This document shows, piece after piece, positions 7,110 to 37,879 of a DNA stretch of 64,000 bases. A program made the translations under genes and the position numbers. Numbering within the stretch: position 1 is the stretch's first letter; each line of letters opens with the position of its first letter. The notes under the pieces were generated by a model. The model ran no database searches. It worked only from the letters and a program-made list of their open reading frames with translations, and was not told the origin of the DNA. Origin of the DNA: an uncultured Candidatus Saccharibacteria bacterium (lineage in GTDB: Bacteria; Patescibacteriota; UBA1384; XYA2-FULL-43-10; 1-14-0-10-43-13); contig CAYOQP010000002.1 in the NCBI GenBank assembly GCA_964406145.1, forward strand, positions 13,537-77,536, given 5' to 3'.

Positions 7110-7155
7110 TCTCAAAAAGTGCAATCACGCCGCTTTTCTGTCGGCTATTTTGACG

Positions 7156-7184
7156 TTGACACAAACACGAAAATATGTTAAAAT
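7156..7184 (+). promoter_or_regulatory. sigma70-like promoter (TTGACA-17-TAAAAT) at the left edge of the GC-rich island
   Basis: Consensus -35 with 17-bp spacer; AAGGAG RBS before ATG 7242. Confidence 0.5.
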
Positions 7185-7241
7185 ATCGCAAGCTCAGCCT
7201 GGGAAAGATCGAATTCAGGCGAGCTAACAAGGAGCGGGAAC

Positions 7242-7871
7242 ATGCGTACTTTGATAATTTTGAGCCTTGTGCTCACGGTGGCGATCCCGATGATCGTCCT
7301 TACCGGTTGCGGCCAGAAGCAACCGGACCGTGCCCTTTTGGCTGCGGTGGACTACTCTGGCTCGGTTGATTCCAAGGAGCGCGCCGACTACGTCGGCAAG
7401 CTCGAGGAGCTGATCGACCGGCAGGATGGCAAGGCAGAGGTAACACTCTACGTCTTCGCCAAGACGCCGGAAAAGGTCTACTCTGGCCGACCTCTTGACT
7501 TCACCGACTGCTGGTTGGTGGATGACGAGACCAAGGCTCGTGAGGCCGACAAGACTCGTGGAACGAGTCTTGCTCCCACGCTGGAACAGTATTGCAGGGA
7601 TGCAGCTGCTACCAGCCTGCCAGTGATTGCCGTTCTGTTCACAGACGGTGATTGCTTCGATGTCCCGCGTACCAAGGCGGCGGCAAAGAAGCTGGCAGAA
7701 ATGTCTAATTTCAAATGTCTGATGGTCGGACCGCTGACGACCGATAGACTCGGACTAGAGAACAGTACCCTTTCGCCCCTGCGCGATAGTGGTAAGCTGG
7801 TCACTTGTGGCCAGCACGACGTCGCCGACGCGTTCAACACGCTCATGGCGAAAGTGGGAGGCTCCAAATGA
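7242..7871 (+). CDS. vWA-like lipoprotein
   Basis: Lipoprotein signal (LTGCGQ); MIDAS-like DYSGSVD; VIAVLFTDGD. About 60% GC. Confidence 0.55.
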   Translation: MRTLIILSLVLTVAIPMIVLTGCGQKQPDRALLAAVDYSGSVDSKERADYVGKLEELIDRQDGKAEVTLYVFAKTPEKVYSGRPLDFTDCWLVDDETKAREADKTRGTSLAPTLEQYCRDAAATSLPVIAVLFTDGDCFDVPRTKAAAKKLAEMSNFKCLMVGPLTTDRLGLENSTLSPLRDSGKLVTCGQHDVADAFNTLMAKVGGSK

Positions 7872-9190
7872 CAAACCAGCGTTACACCGACGTAGACGAT
7901 CTCCTGGCGGCTGAGCCCCAGGACACTACCGGAGCCCCCACGGCTCCCGATATGGATGTCATGACCCTGCTGCAGCCGATCAATCATGATCTGGCTGCAT
8001 ACCAGACCGCCATCGACGCGATGGCCGCTTCCTACCCGGAAGAGGCGGCGCGTCTGACAGTTCTGCTGTCCCAGCTTCGCGAGACGGGCAACCGTTTCGA
8101 GGATGCTCGTGCTAGCGCAGAAACGCTGCGCAACCAGCTCATCGGACAGCGCCAGACTCAGCGCAATACGATCGAGACCGACCTGAAAACGGTCGTCTCT
8201 GCTCTCGTACCATTGCGTCAGGCCCACGATGCCAAAGCGGCCGCCTTCCGCCTGGAAGCCGCCAAGTATGGTGTCAGTTGTGAGCCGTCTGGCCCCGCTT
8301 ATCAGGCCGCCCTGGCCGAAAAAGCAGGAGTCGTTATTCCGGAAGAGATCCCGGCCCTGCCGGAACTCATGCCGGAACTGACCCAGAAGACCAAGTTGAT
8401 GGGGCTGAGCGACATCTTCGCCTCGATCCTGGTTGGCCTCTTCGTCGCTGTCTGTGTGTTGAGCGCTTTCGGGTTCTTGACATATCGCGCGATGAAGACG
8501 GGGCAAATTGACCCGATCGCCTGGGTCCTTTCCCCGTTCGGTCCCCTCGTTGTCTTGCTCGTCGGCATTGCCATCGCCTGGGTGACCAGGAACCTGCTCG
8601 AGCTGGAGATGGAGGATTCGTCCAAATCCCAGCGCAGCATGGCTTATGGCTCTGCCATTGCGATCGGCGCCATCTGGCTGGCGGAGATGTTCTTAGAGGC
8701 CTACGGTCTCTTCCGTCTCTCTCAGGAGAAGGCTGCCATCGCGGCGCGCATGACTGGGCAACCGGTCGAGGCAACTCCGCTTGCGTTCCTCGTCATCCTG
8801 GCGCTGATCGTCACGACACCGTACTTCGTCTATAAGGCTCTCAAGGCCTACAACGATACGATGCCGCGGATCAAAGCCTGGCGTGAGCGCAAAGCGGCCG
8901 AGCGCCAACGGGCCGAAGCTCTGGCACAGCGCGCCAGCGCCTGCCAAGCCATAGAGACGCTATGTCGCACGACCCCGCGCCTGCGGGACATCGGCGGCAT
9001 TGTCGCTCAAGCGGACGCGCTCGCGTCGCAGATTGAGCCCCTCGAGGCCCGCGAAGTACTGCTCCGGGAATCCTTAGAGGACCTGGAGGGGGAGCCCGAA
9101 CTCCCTGCCCTTACCCAACAGACACTGCTGCGCTTGCGCACCGGTGTCGAGACCCTCGAGCACCAGCTCGTGGAACGTCTCACGACTTGA
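7868..9190 (+). CDS. polytopic membrane protein with N- and C-terminal coiled-coil regions
   Basis: ATGA overlap with the upstream stop; GGGAGG RBS; four hydrophobic helices in the middle; high GC. Confidence 0.55.
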   Translation: MTNQRYTDVDDLLAAEPQDTTGAPTAPDMDVMTLLQPINHDLAAYQTAIDAMAASYPEEAARLTVLLSQLRETGNRFEDARASAETLRNQLIGQRQTQRNTIETDLKTVVSALVPLRQAHDAKAAAFRLEAAKYGVSCEPSGPAYQAALAEKAGVVIPEEIPALPELMPELTQKTKLMGLSDIFASILVGLFVAVCVLSAFGFLTYRAMKTGQIDPIAWVLSPFGPLVVLLVGIAIAWVTRNLLELEMEDSSKSQRSMAYGSAIAIGAIWLAEMFLEAYGLFRLSQEKAAIAARMTGQPVEATPLAFLVILALIVTTPYFVYKALKAYNDTMPRIKAWRERKAAERQRAEALAQRASACQAIETLCRTTPRLRDIGGIVAQADALASQIEPLEAREVLLRESLEDLEGEPELPALTQQTLLRLRTGVETLEHQLVERLTT

Positions 9191-9214
9191 TGCCTTTACC
9201 GGCATCCCTATCAC

Positions 9215-9250
9215 GCCCTCGGCCAACCGGCCGAGGGCGTTGTGTATCTA
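9215..9250 (+). terminator. intrinsic terminator
   Basis: GCCCTCGGCC-AACC-GGCCGAGGGC perfect hairpin followed by a T-rich stretch. Confidence 0.7.
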
Positions 9251-9317
9251 TGGGATTTTTTACTTTGCCATATACATATATATGTATGAAGAAATCATAT
9301 ATAAAGTCAAATTGTTA

Positions 9318-9346
9318 TTGACAAAATAAATTTAGCGTGGTACAAT
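9318..9346 (+). promoter_or_regulatory. perfect consensus sigma70 promoter P1 (TTGACA-17-TACAAT)
   Basis: Seen directly in the sequence. Confidence 0.6.
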
Positions 9347-9531
9347 GCAGCGTTCTGAGGGTGAGTGAGTGGAAGACCTCAGGAGGTGCAAGATCGATTA
9401 AATAATTACGCTACATAGCAAAAGTGGCAGTAGAGTACTGGTAATTCGTTGGCTCCCCTCCGCCTTCGAGTTGCCAGTACTTTGCCGCCAGACGTATCAA
9501 CTTTACCCAGCTCAAAACAGACAATACAGTC

Positions 9532-9560
9532 TTGACAAAAACAGAAAAATGTAGTATAAT
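9532..9560 (+). promoter_or_regulatory. perfect consensus sigma70 promoter P2 (TTGACA-17-TATAAT)
   Basis: Seen directly; lies 214 bp downstream of P1. Confidence 0.6.
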
Positions 9561-10005
9561 ACTCTTATGCACGATAGGAAATGAAGTCGTGAGCAACACA
9601 CAAAATAGTAACGAAAAGCATGAATACTGGCGCATATGATCGAGGGTAATTGCACAGAATCAAGTTTACCTAGAATCAGGCGACAGCGTCCTGCATAATT
9701 CAATCCATCGCAAGATGGAATCGTGGGTTCCCCCTCCGCCCGCGAGAGTTATGCAGAACAGTGTCGCTTTATTTGTCTCAAAAGAGACAATATAGGGTCA
9801 CCTGCACATTAACAATATTATAAACTTTCTCAGCAAAGAATTAGCTAATCACACACTATGGCGCTCGTAACGGCGTAATCTGATCTTGCGATCACTCGCG
9901 CCAGAGGAAACGCCAGAATAGCCCTGATCTCGATTGGCAACTTCTTGCTGAGAAAGCACACTCCAGCCCGTCAATATGACGGATCTTGATAGAAGGAGAA
10001 AGACG

Positions 10006-10899
10006 ATGAATAAACTCGTCACCCTCATCACTTTGTCCGTCATCTTAGTTATGACGGCTGGACTCAACGCATTTGCCGTCTCTGACGGCTATGCCTACGG
10101 CACGGCCCCTGCGCCGACCATGACCAACCCGGCCCCTGTGCCGGCTACCAGTTCTTCCACTGCTACTGCGAAGGCAGAAGCCGTGATCAATCAGATGATC
10201 ACGAAGAAGACCGTTGTGGTCCACCGCCATGGTGGCGGGACCGTAGTCAACGTGCCGCGGCAAGCGGCACCCGTAGTGAATAACTACATCGTGCCGCCGG
10301 CACCGCCGGCAAAGGAGAACGATATGAGTGGAGTACTGATGGGCCTAGTGGTCCTCGGCTGCATCGCGGTTATCGGCGTCATCGCTTGGATCATTACTGC
10401 CGTCATTCAAGGCGGTATGATCGCTCGCACAGAGCAAGCCGCCGCCGCCCGTGAGACCGCACAGCAAAACGCCATCCAGGCCAATGCATTAGCGGCCGCC
10501 AATGCCGCTGCCCGTATCCCTGGGTATGAAGCGCTCAATCTGAGCGTCACGCCCACTGGCCTGCACATGAACGTGCGCCCAGCGAATCCCACGCCGGTCA
10601 TCCCCGCCGCTCCGGTCGCGCCGCCCCCAACGCCGATCATCATCATCCCGCCGGCTGCGCCTGCCCCTGCGGCCCCCGCCGCTCCGGCTGGCTACATGCC
10701 AGCGCCGGTCTTCACCGTAGCGCCGATCACCCTCGTCCCAGTCGGGCACGCTCCGGCACCCGCCCCGGGACCCGCACCTGCTCCGGCACCTGCCCCTGCA
10801 CCTCGTCCCGCCCCGGGACCCGCACCTGCTCCGGCACCTGCCCCTGCACCTCGTCCCGCCGGTGGTGGTGCTCGCCGCCCCGCTCGCACAACCCCGTAA
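10006..10899 (+). CDS. signal-peptide/TM protein with Pro/Ala-rich tandem-repeat C-terminus
   Basis: AAGGAG RBS; N-terminal signal peptide; one internal TM; PAPAPGPAPAPAPAPAPRPA repeated twice (48-bp DNA tandem repeat). Confidence 0.5.
   Translation: MNKLVTLITLSVILVMTAGLNAFAVSDGYAYGTAPAPTMTNPAPVPATSSSTATAKAEAVINQMITKKTVVVHRHGGGTVVNVPRQAAPVVNNYIVPPAPPAKENDMSGVLMGLVVLGCIAVIGVIAWIITAVIQGGMIARTEQAAAARETAQQNAIQANALAAANAAARIPGYEALNLSVTPTGLHMNVRPANPTPVIPAAPVAPPPTPIIIIPPAAPAPAAPAAPAGYMPAPVFTVAPITLVPVGHAPAPAPGPAPAPAPAPAPRPAPGPAPAPAPAPAPRPAGGGARRPARTTP
10763..10858 (+). repeat. 2 x 48-bp perfect tandem repeat encoding the Pro/Ala-rich segment
   Basis: ccccgggacccgcacctgctccggcacctgcccctgcacctcgtcccg occurs twice, head to tail. 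Confidence 0.8.
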
Positions 10900-11017
10900 G
10901 GTTTGTGCGGCAGAGATCCTGTCTCTATGCTCGCCCCCGTGGCGTGCTGGAGACAGTCCTCTGCGAATCATTCCAGACATTCACCCAGCGACCTTGAACT
11001 TGAAGGAGGTTTCAACC

Positions 11018-11569
11018 ATGTCCGACACTCCCGCCGGCACCACCGGCAAAGCGCAGATCAAGCTTCCGCAGCTTCCGCCGGCAGTTGAGCCGGAAGATCT
11101 GCGGACTCGCCTGATGGAAGTGGCAGTTGCCACCCCGTCCGGCGAACGCGCCAAGATGATCGATGCTCTCTCGCGGAAAATGGCCGGTGGCAGCAATGCC
11201 GTCGAGCATCTCCTCGAAGTGATCGAAGACACCAGCGCGGCGCGCGAAGAAATCGTCGGCGCCATCGCCATCCTCATCTCCCCCGCGATCTGGGACAAGT
11301 ACACCAATCCCGATCTGCGTGGAGCTGTCGTCTCCTGGCTCGTGTGGCTGGCCACACAGGAGTTCGACTCCGACATCAGCTTGACCGCGCTGGCGGCAGC
11401 CCAAGCCCTCCTCGCCGAGGGACCGCTCCGCAAGGAGCACGCCAACACAGTCAAAACCTGCATTCTGCAGGCGCGACAGATGGATCCGCCGCTCACCTGG
11501 TCCATCGCCGTCTCGTTCGTCTTCGACTTCGTCGCCAGCAATGGTGGCGAGTCGAAAGACAAGCAATAG
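11018..11569 (+). CDS. hypothetical protein (GC-rich island)
   Basis: GGAGG RBS 7 nt before ATG 11018; high GC; no recognisable motif. Confidence 0.4.
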   Translation: MSDTPAGTTGKAQIKLPQLPPAVEPEDLRTRLMEVAVATPSGERAKMIDALSRKMAGGSNAVEHLLEVIEDTSAAREEIVGAIAILISPAIWDKYTNPDLRGAVVSWLVWLATQEFDSDISLTALAAAQALLAEGPLRKEHANTVKTCILQARQMDPPLTWSIAVSFVFDFVASNGGESKDKQ

Positions 11570-20437: not shown

Positions 20438-20944
20438 ATGCCAACTGAAAAAGAGCTCGAAAGAGTCAAACAATTGCTTGATGCGGCGGAAGCCAGCATC
20501 AGACAGGCGAAGAACGTTTTGTTCACAGCTGAGCTGTCTGAGATGACCAAGGAGTTGTCCAACGGTGATAGCAAGGTGATCGAAGGCGTTTTCAATGGCG
20601 AGAGCATGGTCGGCCCCGATAAAAAGATTTATCCGGTGCCCGCAAACTATGCTTCTAAGTCAAAATTAGTAAGCGGGGATGTCTTAAAGCTTACAATTCT
20701 TGATGATGGCACTTTTCTTTATAAGCAGATCGGGCCGGTCAAACGTAAAAAGGTTATCGGCGAACTTATCGAGGTTGGCGATGGAAAATATATCGTCGAC
20801 ACCAAGAGCGCCGAATATCAAGTTTTGCCTGCGTCAGTAACTTATTTTAAAGCCAAATCAGGTGACAAATTAACAATTCTTTTGCCAGAAGCCGGAGTCT
20901 CCGAGTGGGCGGCAGTAGAAAATTTATTAGAATCAACAATTTAA
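20438..20944 (+). CDS. hypothetical protein
   Basis: 168-aa ORF. Confidence 0.45.
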   Translation: MPTEKELERVKQLLDAAEASIRQAKNVLFTAELSEMTKELSNGDSKVIEGVFNGESMVGPDKKIYPVPANYASKSKLVSGDVLKLTILDDGTFLYKQIGPVKRKKVIGELIEVGDGKYIVDTKSAEYQVLPASVTYFKAKSGDKLTILLPEAGVSEWAAVENLLESTI

Positions 20945-20952
20945 GAGGTAAA

Positions 20953-21987
20953 ATGGTAGTCAAAAACTTTAGCCCCTACAAATTAGTTAGTGAAGCAATT
21001 CATGAATTGAAACCAAATGAGGTTACCGTCATTTCTGGTCGTTTTGGCATTGGTTCTGATCATCTTACTCTTTCTGCTATTGGCAAAAAGCTTAAACTCT
21101 CTAGAGAGCGAATACGTCAAATTGAACGCGAAGCCCTAAAAAAGGTTGCACGTCTGATTGTGAATGAGAAAAATTCTTCTATCAATGAGATTGTTCGTTC
21201 TTTCGAAAAAAATGGTGGCATCACTAGCCATGAAAAAATTGCCGAAAAGTTTCTCGAAGAGAATTATTGGAATGACAAAAACGAGTTCAATTCACTTCAT
21301 CTTATTTTTGTTATTATGCCATCAATTTTGAAAATTGAAAAAACCCAAGAGCTTGAGTCTGGCTGGATGCTAACGTCCTTGTCGAAAGATGACGCAATTA
21401 AAATTATTAACGATTGGGTTGGCCATCTTAAGAAAAATAATAAACCAGAAACTCTTGATGTTTTGATTGATGCTCATCCAGAACACAAGAAATACAAAGT
21501 TACTTTCCTGTCAGAGCTTCCAGAAATTAGTAAGAAACTAGTCAAAACTGATACCGGCCACATTGGTCTATCTTCTTGGCCAGAGGTCAATCCTAAAAAC
21601 GTTCGTGACAAAATATTCTACATCCTAAATCATCATGGTAAGCCAATGCACTTTGAAGACATCGCCAAGGCGATCGTCGACCATAAGTTTGATGGCAAAA
21701 AAATTGTCAAAGCCACAGTTCATAACGAATTGATTGCTGATTCTCGTTTCGTTTTGATTGGCCGTGGAATTTATGCTCTCAAAGAGTGGGGTTATCAACA
21801 GGGTACAGTCTCGGACATCATCAAAGAGATTCTCTCAAAGCATGCCGCTGGTCTTACAGTTGACGAAATCACCAAGAAAGTTTTAGAACAGAGAATGGTT
21901 AAGAAAAATACCATCCTTATCAATCTCCAGACAAAGCCATATTTTAAGAAAATTTCTAAAGAGAAATACGTCCTAAGTAGCTTCTAA
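20953..21987 (+). CDS. sigma-70 region-4-like HTH protein (putative regulator)
   Basis: LTLSAIGKKLKLSRERIRQIEREALKKVAR resembles RpoD region 4.2; AAGAGG RBS before ATG 20953. Confidence 0.55.
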   Translation: MVVKNFSPYKLVSEAIHELKPNEVTVISGRFGIGSDHLTLSAIGKKLKLSRERIRQIEREALKKVARLIVNEKNSSINEIVRSFEKNGGITSHEKIAEKFLEENYWNDKNEFNSLHLIFVIMPSILKIEKTQELESGWMLTSLSKDDAIKIINDWVGHLKKNNKPETLDVLIDAHPEHKKYKVTFLSELPEISKKLVKTDTGHIGLSSWPEVNPKNVRDKIFYILNHHGKPMHFEDIAKAIVDHKFDGKKIVKATVHNELIADSRFVLIGRGIYALKEWGYQQGTVSDIIKEILSKHAAGLTVDEITKKVLEQRMVKKNTILINLQTKPYFKKISKEKYVLSSF

Positions 21988-37070: not shown

Positions 37071-37210
37071 AAGCTCCTTCGTGCTTCCTCACACAATGTG
37101 TGAGGAAATCATCAAAGAACTTTGAGAGTATTGATGTCTCCACCAACATCATCAACGATATATATTATAACATACTCATTCGTATAAAGTCAAGAGGGTA
37201 TTATTTGAGC

Positions 37211-37236
37211 AAATAAAAAACATCCGTTAAGGATGT
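37211..37236 (-). terminator. intrinsic terminator (minus strand) at the end of a GC-rich noncoding region
   Basis: On the minus strand: ACAUCC-UUAAC-GGAUGU followed by UUUUUUAUUU. Confidence 0.6.
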
Positions 37237-37800
37237 AGCTCGCTCCAACCCGGGTGGAAGATGTTCCCGGGTTGGAGCCTGCGAGCGCGCCTGTGCGTAG
37301 AGTGCGGTCAGGCGCATTGTGAGGGCTTGCCCCTCTTGATAGCGGTGAAACGCTGACGATCGCCCTAGCATCACGGGCGTGTCACGGTGTGTTGGTTTTT
37401 GACCGCTCGAAAGCGGTCGGTGGTCTGTGTCGTCCACGTTTGAAGCCGTGCACGACTCTCGATGAACCCTGAGGGCTTATCGAGGTTAAGAAGTAGTGGG
37501 GGTGATGTTCCCGCCTAGTGGAGCCTGTTCGGACTCCGACAACGCGGGTGCACATCGACCTCGGTCTTGGTGACTGCTTCCACCAATGTCGTAGCAGGTG
37601 AAGCGGGCGGGCCGCTCACTGCTAAAGCTTGAGTGATCTCTGATTGGATCGAGACGATGGCCCGGATGCTTGGAGCAACGGGAGCCACGGAAACGTATAC
37701 CGAGATCACTTGGGCCGGTGGAGGAGGACTTTGAATGATAAGCATTCACTTTCTCCTACCGAGAGTCTTTGAACACTGTCACACAGCTTGACACTAGCTC
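37237..37800 (-). ncRNA. candidate structured noncoding RNA of unassigned family (GC-rich, ORF-free)
   Basis: About 560 bp of markedly GC-rich DNA in an AT-rich genome. No plausible protein. Many strong hairpins, including a 13-bp perfect stem GCTCCAACCCGGG/CCCGGGTTGGAGC. Bounded by a minus-strand intrinsic terminator. Confidence 0.35.
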
Positions 37801-37879
37801 AGTGCTCAATGCAAAAATGGTAGCAAAAACATGTTTTGCTTGTCAATAATATAGATTGGTATTTGCTAATTAAGCTTCT

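What the first reader, a model, noticed from the sequence alone, without database searches (positions are those of the whole stretch)
9300..9975. Two perfect-consensus sigma70 promoters in tandem, each followed by a similar about 200 to 250 nt noncoding unit with a shared CCCCTCCGCC motif
TTGACA-17-TACAAT (9318-9346) and TTGACA-17-TATAAT (9532-9560) both match the consensus fully and sit in an AT-rich patch inside the GC-rich island. Each downstream unit repeats three motifs: GGTAATT; GGCTCCCCTCCGCC (9461-9474) and GGTTCCCCCTCCGCCC (9725-9740); and CTCAAAACAGACAATACAG (9511-9529) and CTCAAAAGAGACAATATAG (9779-9797). No credible ORF is present. These look like two copies of a small RNA gene, or a structured leader for the 10006 gene. 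The CCUCC core is anti-Shine-Dalgarno-like, which would suit an RBS-occluding regulatory RNA.
Basis: seen in the sequence. Interest (0 to 1): 0.65.

Follow-up and report, generated by a model that had tools for sequence, protein, structure and literature searches.

The report
Tandem C-loop small RNAs, Saccharibacteria
The region holds two neighbouring genes for an uncatalogued, strongly conserved structured small RNA of one group of Saccharibacteria, each with a near-perfect promoter and an invariant C-rich loop; they always sit just ahead of a surface-protein and secretion gene cluster, and what they control is still unknown.

Summary
The window is a chromosome piece of a Candidatus Saccharibacteria (Patescibacteria) bacterium.

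- **Same element in relatives.** It occurs downstream of tgt in all five related GTDB genomes and in about 20 metagenome contigs. Every transcription unit, holding one or two cores, has a TTGACA-17-TAnAAT promoter.
- **Core fold.** The core is about 100 nt: a long stem P1, a variable hairpin P2, and a hairpin P3 with the loop UCCCCCUCC.
- **Covariation.** On 33 distinct sequences, 96.9% of pair cells are paired and 25 of 30 pairs show compensatory changes. G-U pairs and model scores put the RNA on the + strand.
- **Termination.** The last unit of each locus ends in a U-tract.
- **Databases.** There is no Rfam match and no phage or plasmid match.
- **Window layout.** It has a reduced type A unit (9347-9495), a full type B unit (9561-9775) and a third conserved element, the structured leader of the GC-rich gene at 10006.
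- **Mechanism (inferred, about 35-40%).** These are abundant sRNAs whose anti-Shine-Dalgarno-like loop pairs with G-rich or SD sequences.
- **Rivals.** A cis attenuator of the adjacent surface-protein gene, or a protein-binding RNA.

I file it as a new sRNA family.

The parts
9318..9346 (+). Promoter of unit A: -35 TTGACA (9318-9323), 17 nt spacer, extended -10 TGgTACAAT (9338-9346). The start is predicted near 9353.
   Evidence: It is identical over 37 nt in the relative L001, although the flanking coding DNA is only 88.7% identical. Equivalent promoters precede the units in 20+ loci.
9353..9386 (+). Type A 5' domain: hairpin UUCUGAGG...CCUCAGGA (9353-9360 pairs with 9377-9384) followed by GGAGG (9382-9386).
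   Evidence: Fold. The domain GUUCUGAGGGUGAG...CCUCA-GGAGG is conserved in most type A units, with some compensatory changes. L001 carries a 30-nt hairpin insertion in its loop.
9424..9495 (+). Unit A core, a reduced form. Outer stem P1 is 9425-9448 paired with 9467-9490. There is no P2 arm. P3 is GGC (9451-9453) paired with GCC (9462-9464), with loop UCCCCUCC (9454-9461). No U-tract follows.
   Evidence: Model R1 scores it 39.3 bits, E 3e-6. The same reduced form, with covarying P1, occurs in the closest relatives L229 and L246.
9511..9529 (+). Post-core motif CTCAAAACAGACAATACAG, copy 1. It ends 2 nt before the second -35.
   Evidence: Similar CAAAACAGA-type A-rich linkers follow units in L123 and L273. 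Function unknown.
9532..9560 (+). Promoter of unit B: TTGACA-17-TATAAT, 12/12. The start is predicted near 9567.
   Evidence: It is the only 12/12 site in the window.
9567..9675 (+). Type B 5' domain: hairpin CACGAU...GUCGUG (9570-9591) and the G-rich pentamer GAGGG (9642-9646), which is complementary to the P3 loop.
   Evidence: Fold. All seven type B units carry a loop-complementary pentamer (GAGGG, GGAGG or GGGGA) 29-43 nt before P1, in otherwise unalignable sequence.
9676..9775 (+). Unit B core. P1 is 9678-9701 paired with 9746-9769. P2 is CCAUCGCAAGAUGG (9705-9718). P3 is 9721-9728 paired with 9738-9745, with loop UCCCCCUCC (9729-9737). The U-tract UUUAUUUG (9768-9775) makes P1 plus U-tract an intrinsic terminator.
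   Evidence: R1 scores it 83.7 bits on +, against 28 bits on -. A U-tract follows the last unit in 20 of 21 loci. The type B core is nearly invariant in sequence across relatives.
9777..9795 (+). Post-core motif CTCAAAAGAGACAATATAG, copy 2. It contains the small hairpin GUCUC-AAAA-GAGAC.
9806..9816 (+). Conserved motif ACaTTAACAAT. It is -35-like but has no -10 at sigma-70 spacing. It may be an unusual promoter, an operator or an RNA-level signal.
   Evidence: ACnTTRACAAT lies 19-136 nt after the terminator and 12-17 nt before the leader hairpin in 16 loci, with degenerate forms in four more.
9825..9956 (+). Long leader hairpin of the GC-rich gene: CUUUCUCAGCAAAGAA...UUCUUGCUGAGAAAG, with an AACGGCG motif inside.
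   Evidence: YNGAGCAAAGA...UCUUUGCUCNG arms are conserved in L126, L267, L233, L229 and L123.
9968..10008 (+). RBS-proximal hairpin CCGUCA-AUA-UGACGG (9968-9982), SD AAGGAG (9993-9998) and ATG (10006) of the GC-rich secreted protein gene.
   Evidence: The hairpin is conserved in L229. The protein has a signal peptide and is Pro/Ala-rich.

Best explanation
Positions 9318-9775 carry two paralogous genes, type A then type B, of a structured small-RNA family. The family is specific to one group of Saccharibacteria and is not in Rfam.

**Transcription.**
- Each gene is transcribed on the + strand from a near-consensus sigma-70 promoter.
- Unit A has no terminator. Its transcript probably runs through unit B.
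- All transcripts end at the intrinsic terminator formed by the long outer stem of unit B plus its U-tract (about 9775).
- The expected products are RNAs of about 210 and about 420 nt.

**Fold.** The conserved core is a three-way junction. Its long stem P1 and spacer arm P2 present hairpin P3, whose loop UCCCCCUCC does not vary.

**Proposed mechanism (inferred).**
- The anti-Shine-Dalgarno-like loop is the working site. It base-pairs with G-rich sequences of the GGAGG, GAGGG or GGAGGG type.
- One partner is inside the same RNA: a conserved G-rich pentamer in the 5' domain, which could close the loop.
- The other partners are ribosome-binding sites of mRNAs. This would make the RNA a translational repressor or SD competitor.
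- The likeliest regulon is the surface-protein and type IV secretion-like cluster it is always linked to.

**Separate element.** Positions 9806-10005 are the structured 5' leader of the GC-rich secreted-protein gene.

**What is shown.** The family, the strand, the fold, the promoters, the terminator and the synteny.

**What is inferred.** Transcription itself, the transcript ends, and the whole mode of action.
For: **Family and distribution.**
- The host is Saccharibacteria; its tgt is 59-76% identical to five GTDB MAGs.
- All five carry TTGACA promoters followed by CCCC(C)TCCGCC units downstream of tgt.
- A specific pattern scan of metagenomes, followed by model R1, found units of 61-85 bits in about 20 further contigs. 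These are often in pairs.

**Structure.**
- An independent MAFFT and RNAalifold run on 11 units gave 30 pairs, 23 with compensatory changes.
- On 33 distinct sequences, 96.9% of cells are paired, 25 of 30 pairs change on both sides, and 0 of 500 shuffles reach this. Slid controls reach only 24-45%.

**Strand.**
- About 125 G-U cells would be mismatches on the other strand.
- R1 scores 72-88 bits on + against 25-37 bits on -.

**Promoters.** Every transcription unit (one or two cores) has TTGACAAA...TGnTAnAAT. Promoter A and its 5' hairpin are better conserved than the neighbouring genes.

**Terminator.** The last unit has at least 4 U in the 8 nt after P1 in 20 of 21 loci. Ten of 16 internal units have at most 3.

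**Loop.**
- It is CCCCUCC in 11 of 11 units that were not selected by the loop.
- Junction nucleotides are variable. That argues against a small-molecule pocket and for a presented recognition loop.

**G-rich partner.** A loop-complementary pentamer lies at -29 to -43 in 7 of 7 type B units (joint shuffle probability 2e-4). GGAGG or GAGGG follows the type A 5' hairpin in most units.

**SD statistics.**
- GGAGG is followed by G in 28 of 68 SDs in these loci.
- The p119 and giant-protein genes have GGAGGG or CGGAGGG(G) SDs in several lineages.
- In the window, 5 of the 6 locus genes rank in the top 13 of 91 start regions for predicted pairing with P3. This test is crude.
Against: - There are no expression data of any kind. 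Transcript ends are predictions.
- No specific, conserved target site was found. Hits for seven or more complementary bases are scattered.
- GGAGGG is simply the common SD in this group, so the match to neighbouring genes is weak evidence.
- The SD of the immediately downstream gene has no extended complementarity.
- The one perfect 9-nt complement, at 9087-9095 inside the upstream gene, is compatible with chance. I estimate an expectation of about 0.2.
- Loop invariance in the metagenome hits is partly by construction, because the scan pattern contained the loop.
- The near-invariant sequence of the type B outer stem goes beyond what a base-pairing seed model needs. It suggests a protein partner.
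- RNA and GC-rich gene stay together and co-oriented despite rearrangements on both sides. That also fits a cis-acting role.
Confidence: 0.5

Rival explanations
1. The units are a cis-acting transcription attenuator for the GC-rich secreted-protein gene or operon. The very strong promoters drive that gene. Most transcripts stop at the P1 plus U-tract terminator, and the sRNAs are the by-product. A signal such as a protein, a ribosome, an RNA or the loop/G-pentamer pairing controls read-through.
For: - In every locus the units lie directly upstream of, and co-oriented with, a GC-rich signal-peptide protein gene. This holds where the p119/giant operon is inverted (L122, L123) and where other genes are inserted between tgt and the RNA.
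- No sigma-70 consensus promoter lies between the terminator and the gene.
- The terminator is part of the conserved core.
- From general knowledge, not tested here: the HMP-PP riboswitch is a precedent for an aptamer embedded in a terminator, and terminated riboswitches can act in trans.
Against: - Each unit often has its own promoter, which is unusual for a leader.
- Junction and internal-loop nucleotides are poorly conserved, so there is no obvious ligand pocket.
- No conserved alternative (antiterminator) pairing was seen.
- 100-430 nt with a separate conserved motif and leader hairpin lie between terminator and gene. That suggests a separate transcription or processing unit.
Confidence: 0.22
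2. The RNA is a protein-binding RNA: a ribonucleoprotein scaffold, a protein sponge, or a mimic of an rRNA site. The invariant loop and the conserved lower P1 with its 2x2 internal loop would be protein contact sites. One version is mimicry of the 16S rRNA 3' region (helix 45 stem plus the CCUCC tail), titrating a factor that binds there.
For: - Sequence conservation goes beyond structure. The type B P1 is almost invariant while its 5' region is unalignable.
- GCGRYAGCGUGCUG / CAGCACAnUGYCGC and the internal loop are conserved.
- Strong promoters and two copies suggest high abundance.
- From memory, not tool-tested: the consensus P3 stem CGUAGG/CCUGCG, with its U-G pair, equals the E. coli 16S helix 45 stem, and CCUCC is the anti-SD.
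Against: - The P3 stem covaries freely (GUAGG/CCUAC, AUGGG/CCCAU, ACAAG/CUUGU), so its sequence is not what is recognised.
- No candidate RNA-binding protein is conserved next to the RNA.
- There is no match to 6S, SRP, Y RNA or any other RNP family in Rfam.
Confidence: 0.15
3. The 5' strand of P1 is an ops-like DNA or RNA element. It would recruit a specialised NusG paralogue for processive antitermination through the long surface and secretion operon, as ops/RfaH does for LPS, capsule and F-pilus operons.
For: - The family consensus (U/G)GCGGUAGCGUG matches ops12 GGCGGTAGCGTG (sequence confirmed in PMC5995543) at 10 or more of 12 positions in 14 of 33 units, and at 11 of 12 in three.
- Only one other 10-of-12 match exists in the 128 kb of both window strands.
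- The context fits: a leader in front of a surface and T4SS-like cluster.
Against: - The two positions RfaH reads, G5 and T6, are exactly the variable ones here. They covary with their P1 partners as RNA base pairs.
- The window's units read GGCGACAGCGTC (9 of 12) and worse.
- No NusG-like protein was found among the window proteins scanned.
- Rfam JUMPstart does not match.
- In L122 and L123 the T4SS-associated operon is on the other strand.
Confidence: 0.04
4. This is not an RNA at all. It would be chance promoter-like sites with decayed gene fragments, minus-strand small ORFs, or a DNA-level inverted-repeat element such as oriT or a recombination site.
For: - Minus-strand ORFs of 63-81 aa start right after the GGAGGGGGA complement of the loop in the window, L233 and L123.
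- The locus lies beside a T4SS-like cluster.
Against: - Covariation keeps the pairing rather than a reading frame.
- The many G-U pairs work on the + strand only.
- The ORF sequence outside the core is unalignable, with indels.
- Promoters and U-tracts are conserved in the + orientation.
- No relaxase or recombinase lies nearby.
- There are no plasmid or phage matches.
Confidence: 0.02

Closest known systems
C-rich-loop base-pairing sRNAs of Firmicutes (RsaE/RoxS; the hairpin loops of S. aureus RNAIII)
   Same: - Short structured RNAs with their own strong promoter and an intrinsic terminator.
- A conserved C-rich motif is presented in a hairpin loop and is complementary to G-rich SD regions. 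This is the proposed mode of action here.
   Different: - There is no sequence or model similarity; Rfam gives no hits.
- The fold is different: a three-way junction whose closing stem is itself the terminator.
- The phylum is different.
- Targets and any chaperone are unknown, and the mechanism here is inference only.
Multicopy sibling sRNAs with anti-SD motifs (Listeria LhrC1-5; streptococcal csRNAs)
   Same: - Two or more paralogous copies lie in tandem, each often with its own promoter.
- UCCC or CCUCC motifs are complementary to ribosome-binding sites.
   Different: - Here there are two distinct subtypes with different 5' domains. In some lineages two cores lie in one transcript.
- There is no known two-component regulator or promoter motif.
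- The position is fixed beside one gene cluster.
- There is no homology.
Terminator-embedded or terminated cis-regulatory RNAs (HMP-PP 'thiS' riboswitch; SreA/SreB-type terminated leaders acting in trans)
   Same: A conserved structure overlaps an intrinsic terminator directly upstream of a constantly associated gene. The terminated product could also act in trans.
   Different: - There is no conserved junction pocket or alternative pairing.
- Each unit often has its own promoter.
- A long separate leader lies between the terminator and the gene.
ops / JUMPstart element (RfaH recruitment site)
   Same: There is a 9-11 of 12 match to GGCGGTAGCGTG in the 5' strand of P1, and it sits in front of surface and secretion genes.
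   Different: - The invariant G5 and T6 of ops are variable here and covary as RNA pairs.
- The Rfam JUMPstart model does not match.
- No NusG paralogue was seen.
- RfaH is a proteobacterial factor.

Membership tests
Any curated Rfam family (including 6S, SRP, tmRNA, RNase P, 5S, RsaE, JUMPstart, T-box, riboswitches) | Covariance-model match at or near the family's gathering score | tested here: not met
   - The window and five relatives gave no relevant hit at gathering score.
- Permissive scans at E up to 10 of window 9150-10050, L126 12860-13530 and L122 15600-15940 gave only chance miRNA and snoRNA hits.
Independent bacterial sRNA gene | Own promoter immediately upstream | tested here: met
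   By sequence only. Consensus TTGACA-17-TAnAAT, usually with an extended -10 TG, lies ahead of every unit or unit pair in 20+ loci. No transcript data.
Independent bacterial sRNA gene | Intrinsic terminator at the 3' end | tested here: met
   A U-rich tract follows P1 of the last unit in 20 of 21 loci. In the window it is UUUAUUUG, 9768-9775. Unit A of the window has none.
Independent bacterial sRNA gene | Conserved secondary structure supported by covariation | tested here: met
   23 of 30 pairs are compensatory on the independent alignment. 25 of 30 pairs and 96.9% of cells are paired on 33 sequences, far above the shuffled and slid controls.
Independent bacterial sRNA gene | Discrete, abundant transcript detected | not testable with these tools
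   No RNA-seq or metatranscriptome tool was available. A TM7x transcriptome preprint states that no sRNAs have been validated in that species.
Anti-SD (C-rich seed) base-pairing sRNA | Conserved single-stranded C-rich motif complementary to SD sequences | tested here: met
   The loop UCCCCCUCC is unpaired in all folds and invariant. It is complementary to the GGAGGG-type SDs common in these genomes.
Anti-SD (C-rich seed) base-pairing sRNA | Conserved, specific target site(s) in mRNA translation-initiation regions | tested here: inconclusive
   The p119 and giant-gene SDs match at 6-8 nt in several lineages, and locus genes rank high. However, GGAGGG is the general SD here, and only partial genomes were available.
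Riboswitch or attenuator leader | Constant position upstream of the same gene class | tested here: met
   The units are always upstream of, and co-oriented with, a GC-rich signal-peptide protein gene.
Riboswitch or attenuator leader | Highly conserved unpaired nucleotides forming a binding pocket, and a mutually exclusive alternative structure | tested here: not met
   Junction columns are variable. Conservation sits in the P3 loop and lower P1. No conserved antiterminator pairing was found in the folds.
ops / JUMPstart (RfaH site) | 12-mer GGCGGTAGCGTG with invariant G5 and T6 | tested here: not met
   The window's type B unit (9676-9774) reads GGCGACAGCGTC, 9 of 12, with G5 and T6 replaced by A and C. 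Across the family these two positions vary and covary with their P1 partners.

The most novel reading that the evidence does not exclude
The invariant loop copies the ribosome's anti-Shine-Dalgarno tail. The RNA would then be an abundant decoy that competes with 30S subunits for SD sequences genome-wide, switched on or off by its own internal SD-like pentamer. A further version: it is handed to the host bacterium through the adjacent type IV secretion-like machinery to interfere with host translation. Either would be a new kind of RNA-based control in an epibiotic, genome-reduced bacterium.
Probability: 0.06. Interest if true: 0.9.

Novelty: new member of a known kind. Interest (0 to 1): 0.6.

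Why it matters
- **No validated sRNAs in this phylum.** Saccharibacteria and other Patescibacteria are ultrasmall epibionts with reduced genomes and very few known regulators. A TM7x transcriptome study notes that no small RNAs have been validated there.
- **A first well-supported regulatory RNA.** This family has textbook promoters, strong covariation, an invariant loop and a fixed place in front of the surface-protein and type IV secretion-like cluster, which is thought to matter for the epibiotic lifestyle. It would give these organisms a concrete handle on how that cluster is controlled.
- **Immediate annotation use.** The covariance model built here can annotate MAGs straight away.
- **An odd associated feature.** Fast-evolving genes that are far more GC-rich than the genome always follow the RNA. 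That deserves study in its own right.

Tried and rejected
- **Known RNA families.** Rfam at gathering and permissive thresholds gave nothing. tRNA and tmRNA searches gave nothing.
- **Phage or plasmid origin.** blastn against phages and plasmids gave nothing. The specific pattern has no hits in viral contigs.
- **Loose loop pattern.** TCCCCN{0,1}TCCGCCNNCGAG in viral contigs returned only chance hits in GC-rich phages. This showed that the pattern needed more context.
- **Flanking island proteins as anchors.**
  - The 438-aa protein has one homologue among 5.8 billion proteins, on a contig that breaks inside unit A.
  - The 10006 protein has no homologue by word search.
  - The 1567-aa protein has no relative in the GTDB representatives.
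  - tgt turned out to be the useful anchor.
- **Small ORFs and leader peptides.** The 14-codon GTG frame in unit A is broken in L001. The minus-strand ORFs are not conserved.
- **GGTAATT as a shared motif.** Rejected, because the two copies sit in non-equivalent positions.
- **Sigma-70 promoter for the 10006 gene.** No -10 lies at the proper spacing after the conserved TTRACA.
- **5S rRNA, SRP and 6S likeness.** These came from memory of sequence fragments and have no model support.
- **ops/RfaH likeness.** Checked and downgraded.
- **NusG paralogue in the window.** None found among the proteins scanned.
- **Target search by complementarity.** It was noisy and not decisive.
- **Other tgt loci.** Model search of other Patescibacteria and other phyla gave no hits, so the family is group-restricted as far as sampled.
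Full report
**Observation**

TTGACA-17-TACAAT lies at 9318-9346; it is 11/12 with an extended -10 TG. TTGACA-17-TATAAT lies at 9532-9560 and is 12/12. Only nine sites in the whole 64 kb reach 11/12, and 9532 is the only perfect one.

The C-rich motif and the 19-nt tail motif are both present twice, but some coordinates were off by 1-10 nt. The true positions are 9451-9464, 9726-9741, 9511-9529 and 9777-9795. GGTAATT is not a homologous motif in the two units.

Each C-rich motif is the apical loop of a long imperfect hairpin, at 9425-9490 and 9678-9769. A third long hairpin lies at 9825-9956. The fold z-scores run from -3.8 to -6.1.

**Context**

The window is a bacterial chromosome of about 39% GC. 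It carries release factor, Pth, L1, L10, tgt, SecD, FtsA and Clp genes. tgt is 59-76% identical to MAGs named Candidatus Saccharibacteria or Patescibacteria.

After tgt comes a stretch of up to 65% GC (7110 to about 11620). It encodes orphan secreted or membrane proteins. Next come a 119-aa protein, a 1567-aa orphan protein and VirB4/VirD4-like ATPases.

A relative at 88.7% DNA identity (Logan contig L001) has the same tgt-island arrangement. In L001, promoter A and the 5' hairpin of unit A are conserved perfectly over 37+ nt, while the next 40 nt diverge.

**The family**

All five GTDB relatives fetched through tgt carry TTGACA promoters followed by units containing GGUUCCCCCUCCGCC, 0.1-5 kb downstream of tgt. 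Every unit folds the same way:
- a 22-25 bp outer stem P1;
- a variable hairpin P2, often capped by UUCG, GCAA or UUUA;
- a hairpin P3 whose 9-nt loop is UCCCCCUCC, closed by U-G;
- usually a U-tract after P1.

MAFFT plus RNAalifold on the 11 units gave 30 pairs, 23 of them with compensatory changes. I built covariance model R1 from this alignment. It finds only these units, on the + strand, in the window and in the Saccharibacteria loci. It finds none in the tgt loci of other Patescibacteria classes or other phyla.

One metagenome scan with a loop-plus-3'-stem pattern gave 76 loci. R1 confirmed units at 61-85 bits in about 20 of them, often two per locus. The remaining loci are chance hits in GC-rich genomes.

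On 33 distinct sequences, 96.9% of pair cells are standard pairs and 25 of 30 pairs change on both sides. No shuffle out of 500 reaches the observed values, and slid controls give 24-45%. About 125 cells are G-U, which would be mismatches on the opposite strand. Minus-strand model scores are 25-37 bits against 72-88 bits on the plus strand.

The loop is CCCCUCC in all 11 units that were not selected by it. Junction nucleotides vary, whereas the lower P1 (GCGRYAGCGUGCUG / CAGCACAnUGYCGC, with a 2x2 internal loop) is conserved.

There is no Rfam match at any threshold. There is no phage, plasmid or viral-contig match.

**Gene anatomy**

Every unit or unit pair follows TTGACAAA...TGnTAnAAT. Two subtypes exist.
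- **Type A** begins with a conserved hairpin, GUUCUGAGGGUGAG...CCUCA, followed by GGAGG or GAGGG.
- **Type B** begins AUGCACG... and has an otherwise unalignable 5' region. That region always contains one pentamer complementary to the loop (GAGGG, GGAGG or GGGGA) 29-43 nt before P1.

Where each unit has its own promoter, the order is A then B. In other lineages two cores follow one type A promoter. The last unit of a locus has a U-tract in 20 of 21 loci, whereas most internal units do not. Transcripts should therefore end after the last core.

In the window:
- Unit A is a reduced form with no P2, an 8-nt loop and no U-tract. It scores 39 bits. It shares this form, with covarying P1, with its closest relatives L229 and L246.
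- Unit B is a full member at 83.7 bits.

**Surroundings**

The order is the same everywhere: rplJ, tgt, RNA unit(s), GC-rich gene(s), p119 homologue, giant protein, VirB4-like gene. This includes contigs found through the RNA alone.

The gene directly downstream is always co-oriented and GC-rich (0.55-0.69, against about 0.40-0.45 for the locus). It encodes a signal-peptide protein of 230-360 aa. These proteins form a fast-evolving but related family, and some carry collagen repeats.

This RNA-gene pair stays together where the p119/giant operon is inverted (L122, L123). It also stays together where genes are inserted between tgt and the RNA.

Between the terminator and that gene lie further conserved elements:
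- the motif ACnTTRACAAT;
- a long leader hairpin starting 12-17 nt later;
- an RBS-proximal hairpin.

In the window these are at 9806-9816, 9825-9956 and 9968-9982. No sigma-70 -10 lies at the right distance from the TTRACA motif.

**Mechanism**

What is shown: a conserved, + strand, three-way-junction RNA with consensus promoters, a terminator, an invariant presented C-rich loop, and tight linkage to one gene cluster.

What is inferred (about 35-40% for this specific mode): the loop pairs with G-rich sequences. The reasons are as follows.
- An invariant loop on a covarying stem is the classic look of a seed.
- The junction shows no ligand pocket.
- A complementary pentamer is kept in the 5' domain of every type B unit, in varying register. 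This points to an internal pairing that could mask the loop.
- The preferred SD in these genomes is GGAGGG: G follows GGAGG in 28 of 68 cases. The extra G is not explained by the canonical 16S tail (my own knowledge), but it would pair with the loop's CCCUCC.
- The p119 and giant-protein genes have GGAGGG or CGGAGGG(G) SDs in several lineages.
- The vWA gene start region, AAGGAGCGGGAAC, matches 10 of 11 positions.
- Five of the six locus genes rank in the top 13 of 91 start regions for predicted pairing.

The target evidence is weak. GGAGGG is common, the genomes are partial, and the perfect complement at 9087-9095 is compatible with chance.

**Rivals**

- **Cis attenuator of the GC-rich gene (about 0.22).** The unbroken linkage and the lack of an intervening canonical promoter favour it. 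Per-unit promoters, the variable junction and the separate leader count against it.
- **Protein-binding RNA (about 0.15).** The near-invariant type B stem sequence favours it. No partner protein is evident.
- **ops-like site for a NusG paralogue (about 0.04).** The P1 5' strand matches GGCGGTAGCGTG at 10-11 of 12 positions in many units. The two bases RfaH reads are the variable, covarying ones, and the window's type B unit (9676-9774) is only 9 of 12.
- **Non-RNA readings.** Covariation, G-U pairs and oriented promoters and terminators exclude these.

**Comparison and novelty**

The RNA would work most like the C-rich-loop, anti-SD sRNAs of Firmicutes (RsaE/RoxS, LhrC, csRNAs). Like them it has tandem sibling copies. 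It shares no sequence, fold or model match with them, so it is not a member of those families.

It is a new sRNA family confined, as far as sampled, to one group of mostly environmental Saccharibacteria. A TM7x transcriptome study states that no sRNAs are validated in that organism. The papers I searched on Patescibacteria T4SS and on ncRNA discovery do not mention it.

**Verdict**

This is a real, conserved, previously uncatalogued RNA locus of moderate to high interest. The function is open. My confidence in the RNA family is about 0.9, and in the proposed mechanism about 0.35-0.4.

Noticed in passing
window 37205-37850, minus strand: A stretch of about 640 nt, GC-rich (about 57%) and free of long ORFs, lies between a thioredoxin-like gene and the next gene.
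- It has a TTGACA promoter-like site near 37843 and a hairpin plus U-tract near 37215-37260.
- The predicted fold is -254.6 kcal/mol with z = -9.1.
- There is no Rfam match even at E up to 5, and no tmRNA was found.

It is a candidate large structured RNA.
   Followed up: partly
window 10006-11569; L229, L256, L205, L213, L235, L124, L125 and others, downstream of the RNA units: The gene or genes right after the RNA units are always much more GC-rich (0.55-0.69, GC3 up to 0.8) than the genome (about 0.40). They encode fast-evolving signal-peptide proteins, some with collagen-like GXY repeats. The 'GC-rich island' is therefore an old, conserved feature of the locus, not a recent import. The cause of the GC bias is unexplained.
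   Followed up: partly
window 9806-9816 and 9825-9956; same positions in 16+ related loci: The conserved motif ACnTTRACAAT is followed, 12-17 nt later, by a long conserved hairpin (YNGAGCAAAGA...UCUUUGCUCNG, with AACGGCG inside). It lies between the sRNA terminator and the GC-rich gene. It is -35-like but has no -10 at sigma-70 spacing. A similar TTAACAAT also precedes some sRNA cores (L255, L262).
   Followed up: partly
window 7110-9190, with promoter 7156-7184: Only the window lineage (and L001) has two extra GC-rich genes inserted between tgt and the RNA units: a vWA-like lipoprotein and a 438-aa membrane coiled-coil protein. They are driven by a third near-consensus promoter, TTGACA-17-TAAAAT with TG. 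The vWA gene's start region, AAGGAGCGGGAAC, is complementary to the P3 loop region at 10 of 11 positions.
   Followed up: partly
window 9087-9095: A perfect 9-nt complement of the loop, GGAGGGGGA, lies inside the 3' end of the 438-aa gene, 230 nt upstream of promoter A. It is conserved in L001. It is probably chance; I estimate an expectation of about 0.2.
   Followed up: partly
window 20905-21987: A 360-aa protein combines a sigma-70 region 4 domain with a HARE-HTH domain. It sits inside the T4SS-like cluster and may be a dedicated transcription factor of the cluster.
   Followed up: no
L001 2813-2842 (relative of window 9372): The relative carries a 30-nt insertion that itself forms a hairpin (CUCGGCUAGCGCCGAG). 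It lies exactly in the loop of the type A 5' hairpin, so the closing stem is what is kept.
   Followed up: no
L214 2440-2495: A simple terminator hairpin in an unrelated genome of 63% GC carries the same loop: GCCGCCGUGGU-UCCCCCUCC-GCCACGGCGGC followed by U7. This is a single case and may be chance.
   Followed up: no
SD regions across the window and 20 related loci: In this group GGAGG is followed by G more often than by U (28 G, 15 U, 19 A and 6 C of 68). This is unexpected for a canonical 16S tail ...CACCUCCUU. The 3' end of the 16S rRNA in this group is worth reading.
   Followed up: partly
5' strand of P1 in the family (window 9679-9690; L257, L235, L233): The consensus (U/G)GCGGUAGCGUG resembles the RfaH ops element GGCGGTAGCGTG, at 11 of 12 positions in three units. 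The positions RfaH reads are the variable ones here.
   Followed up: yes
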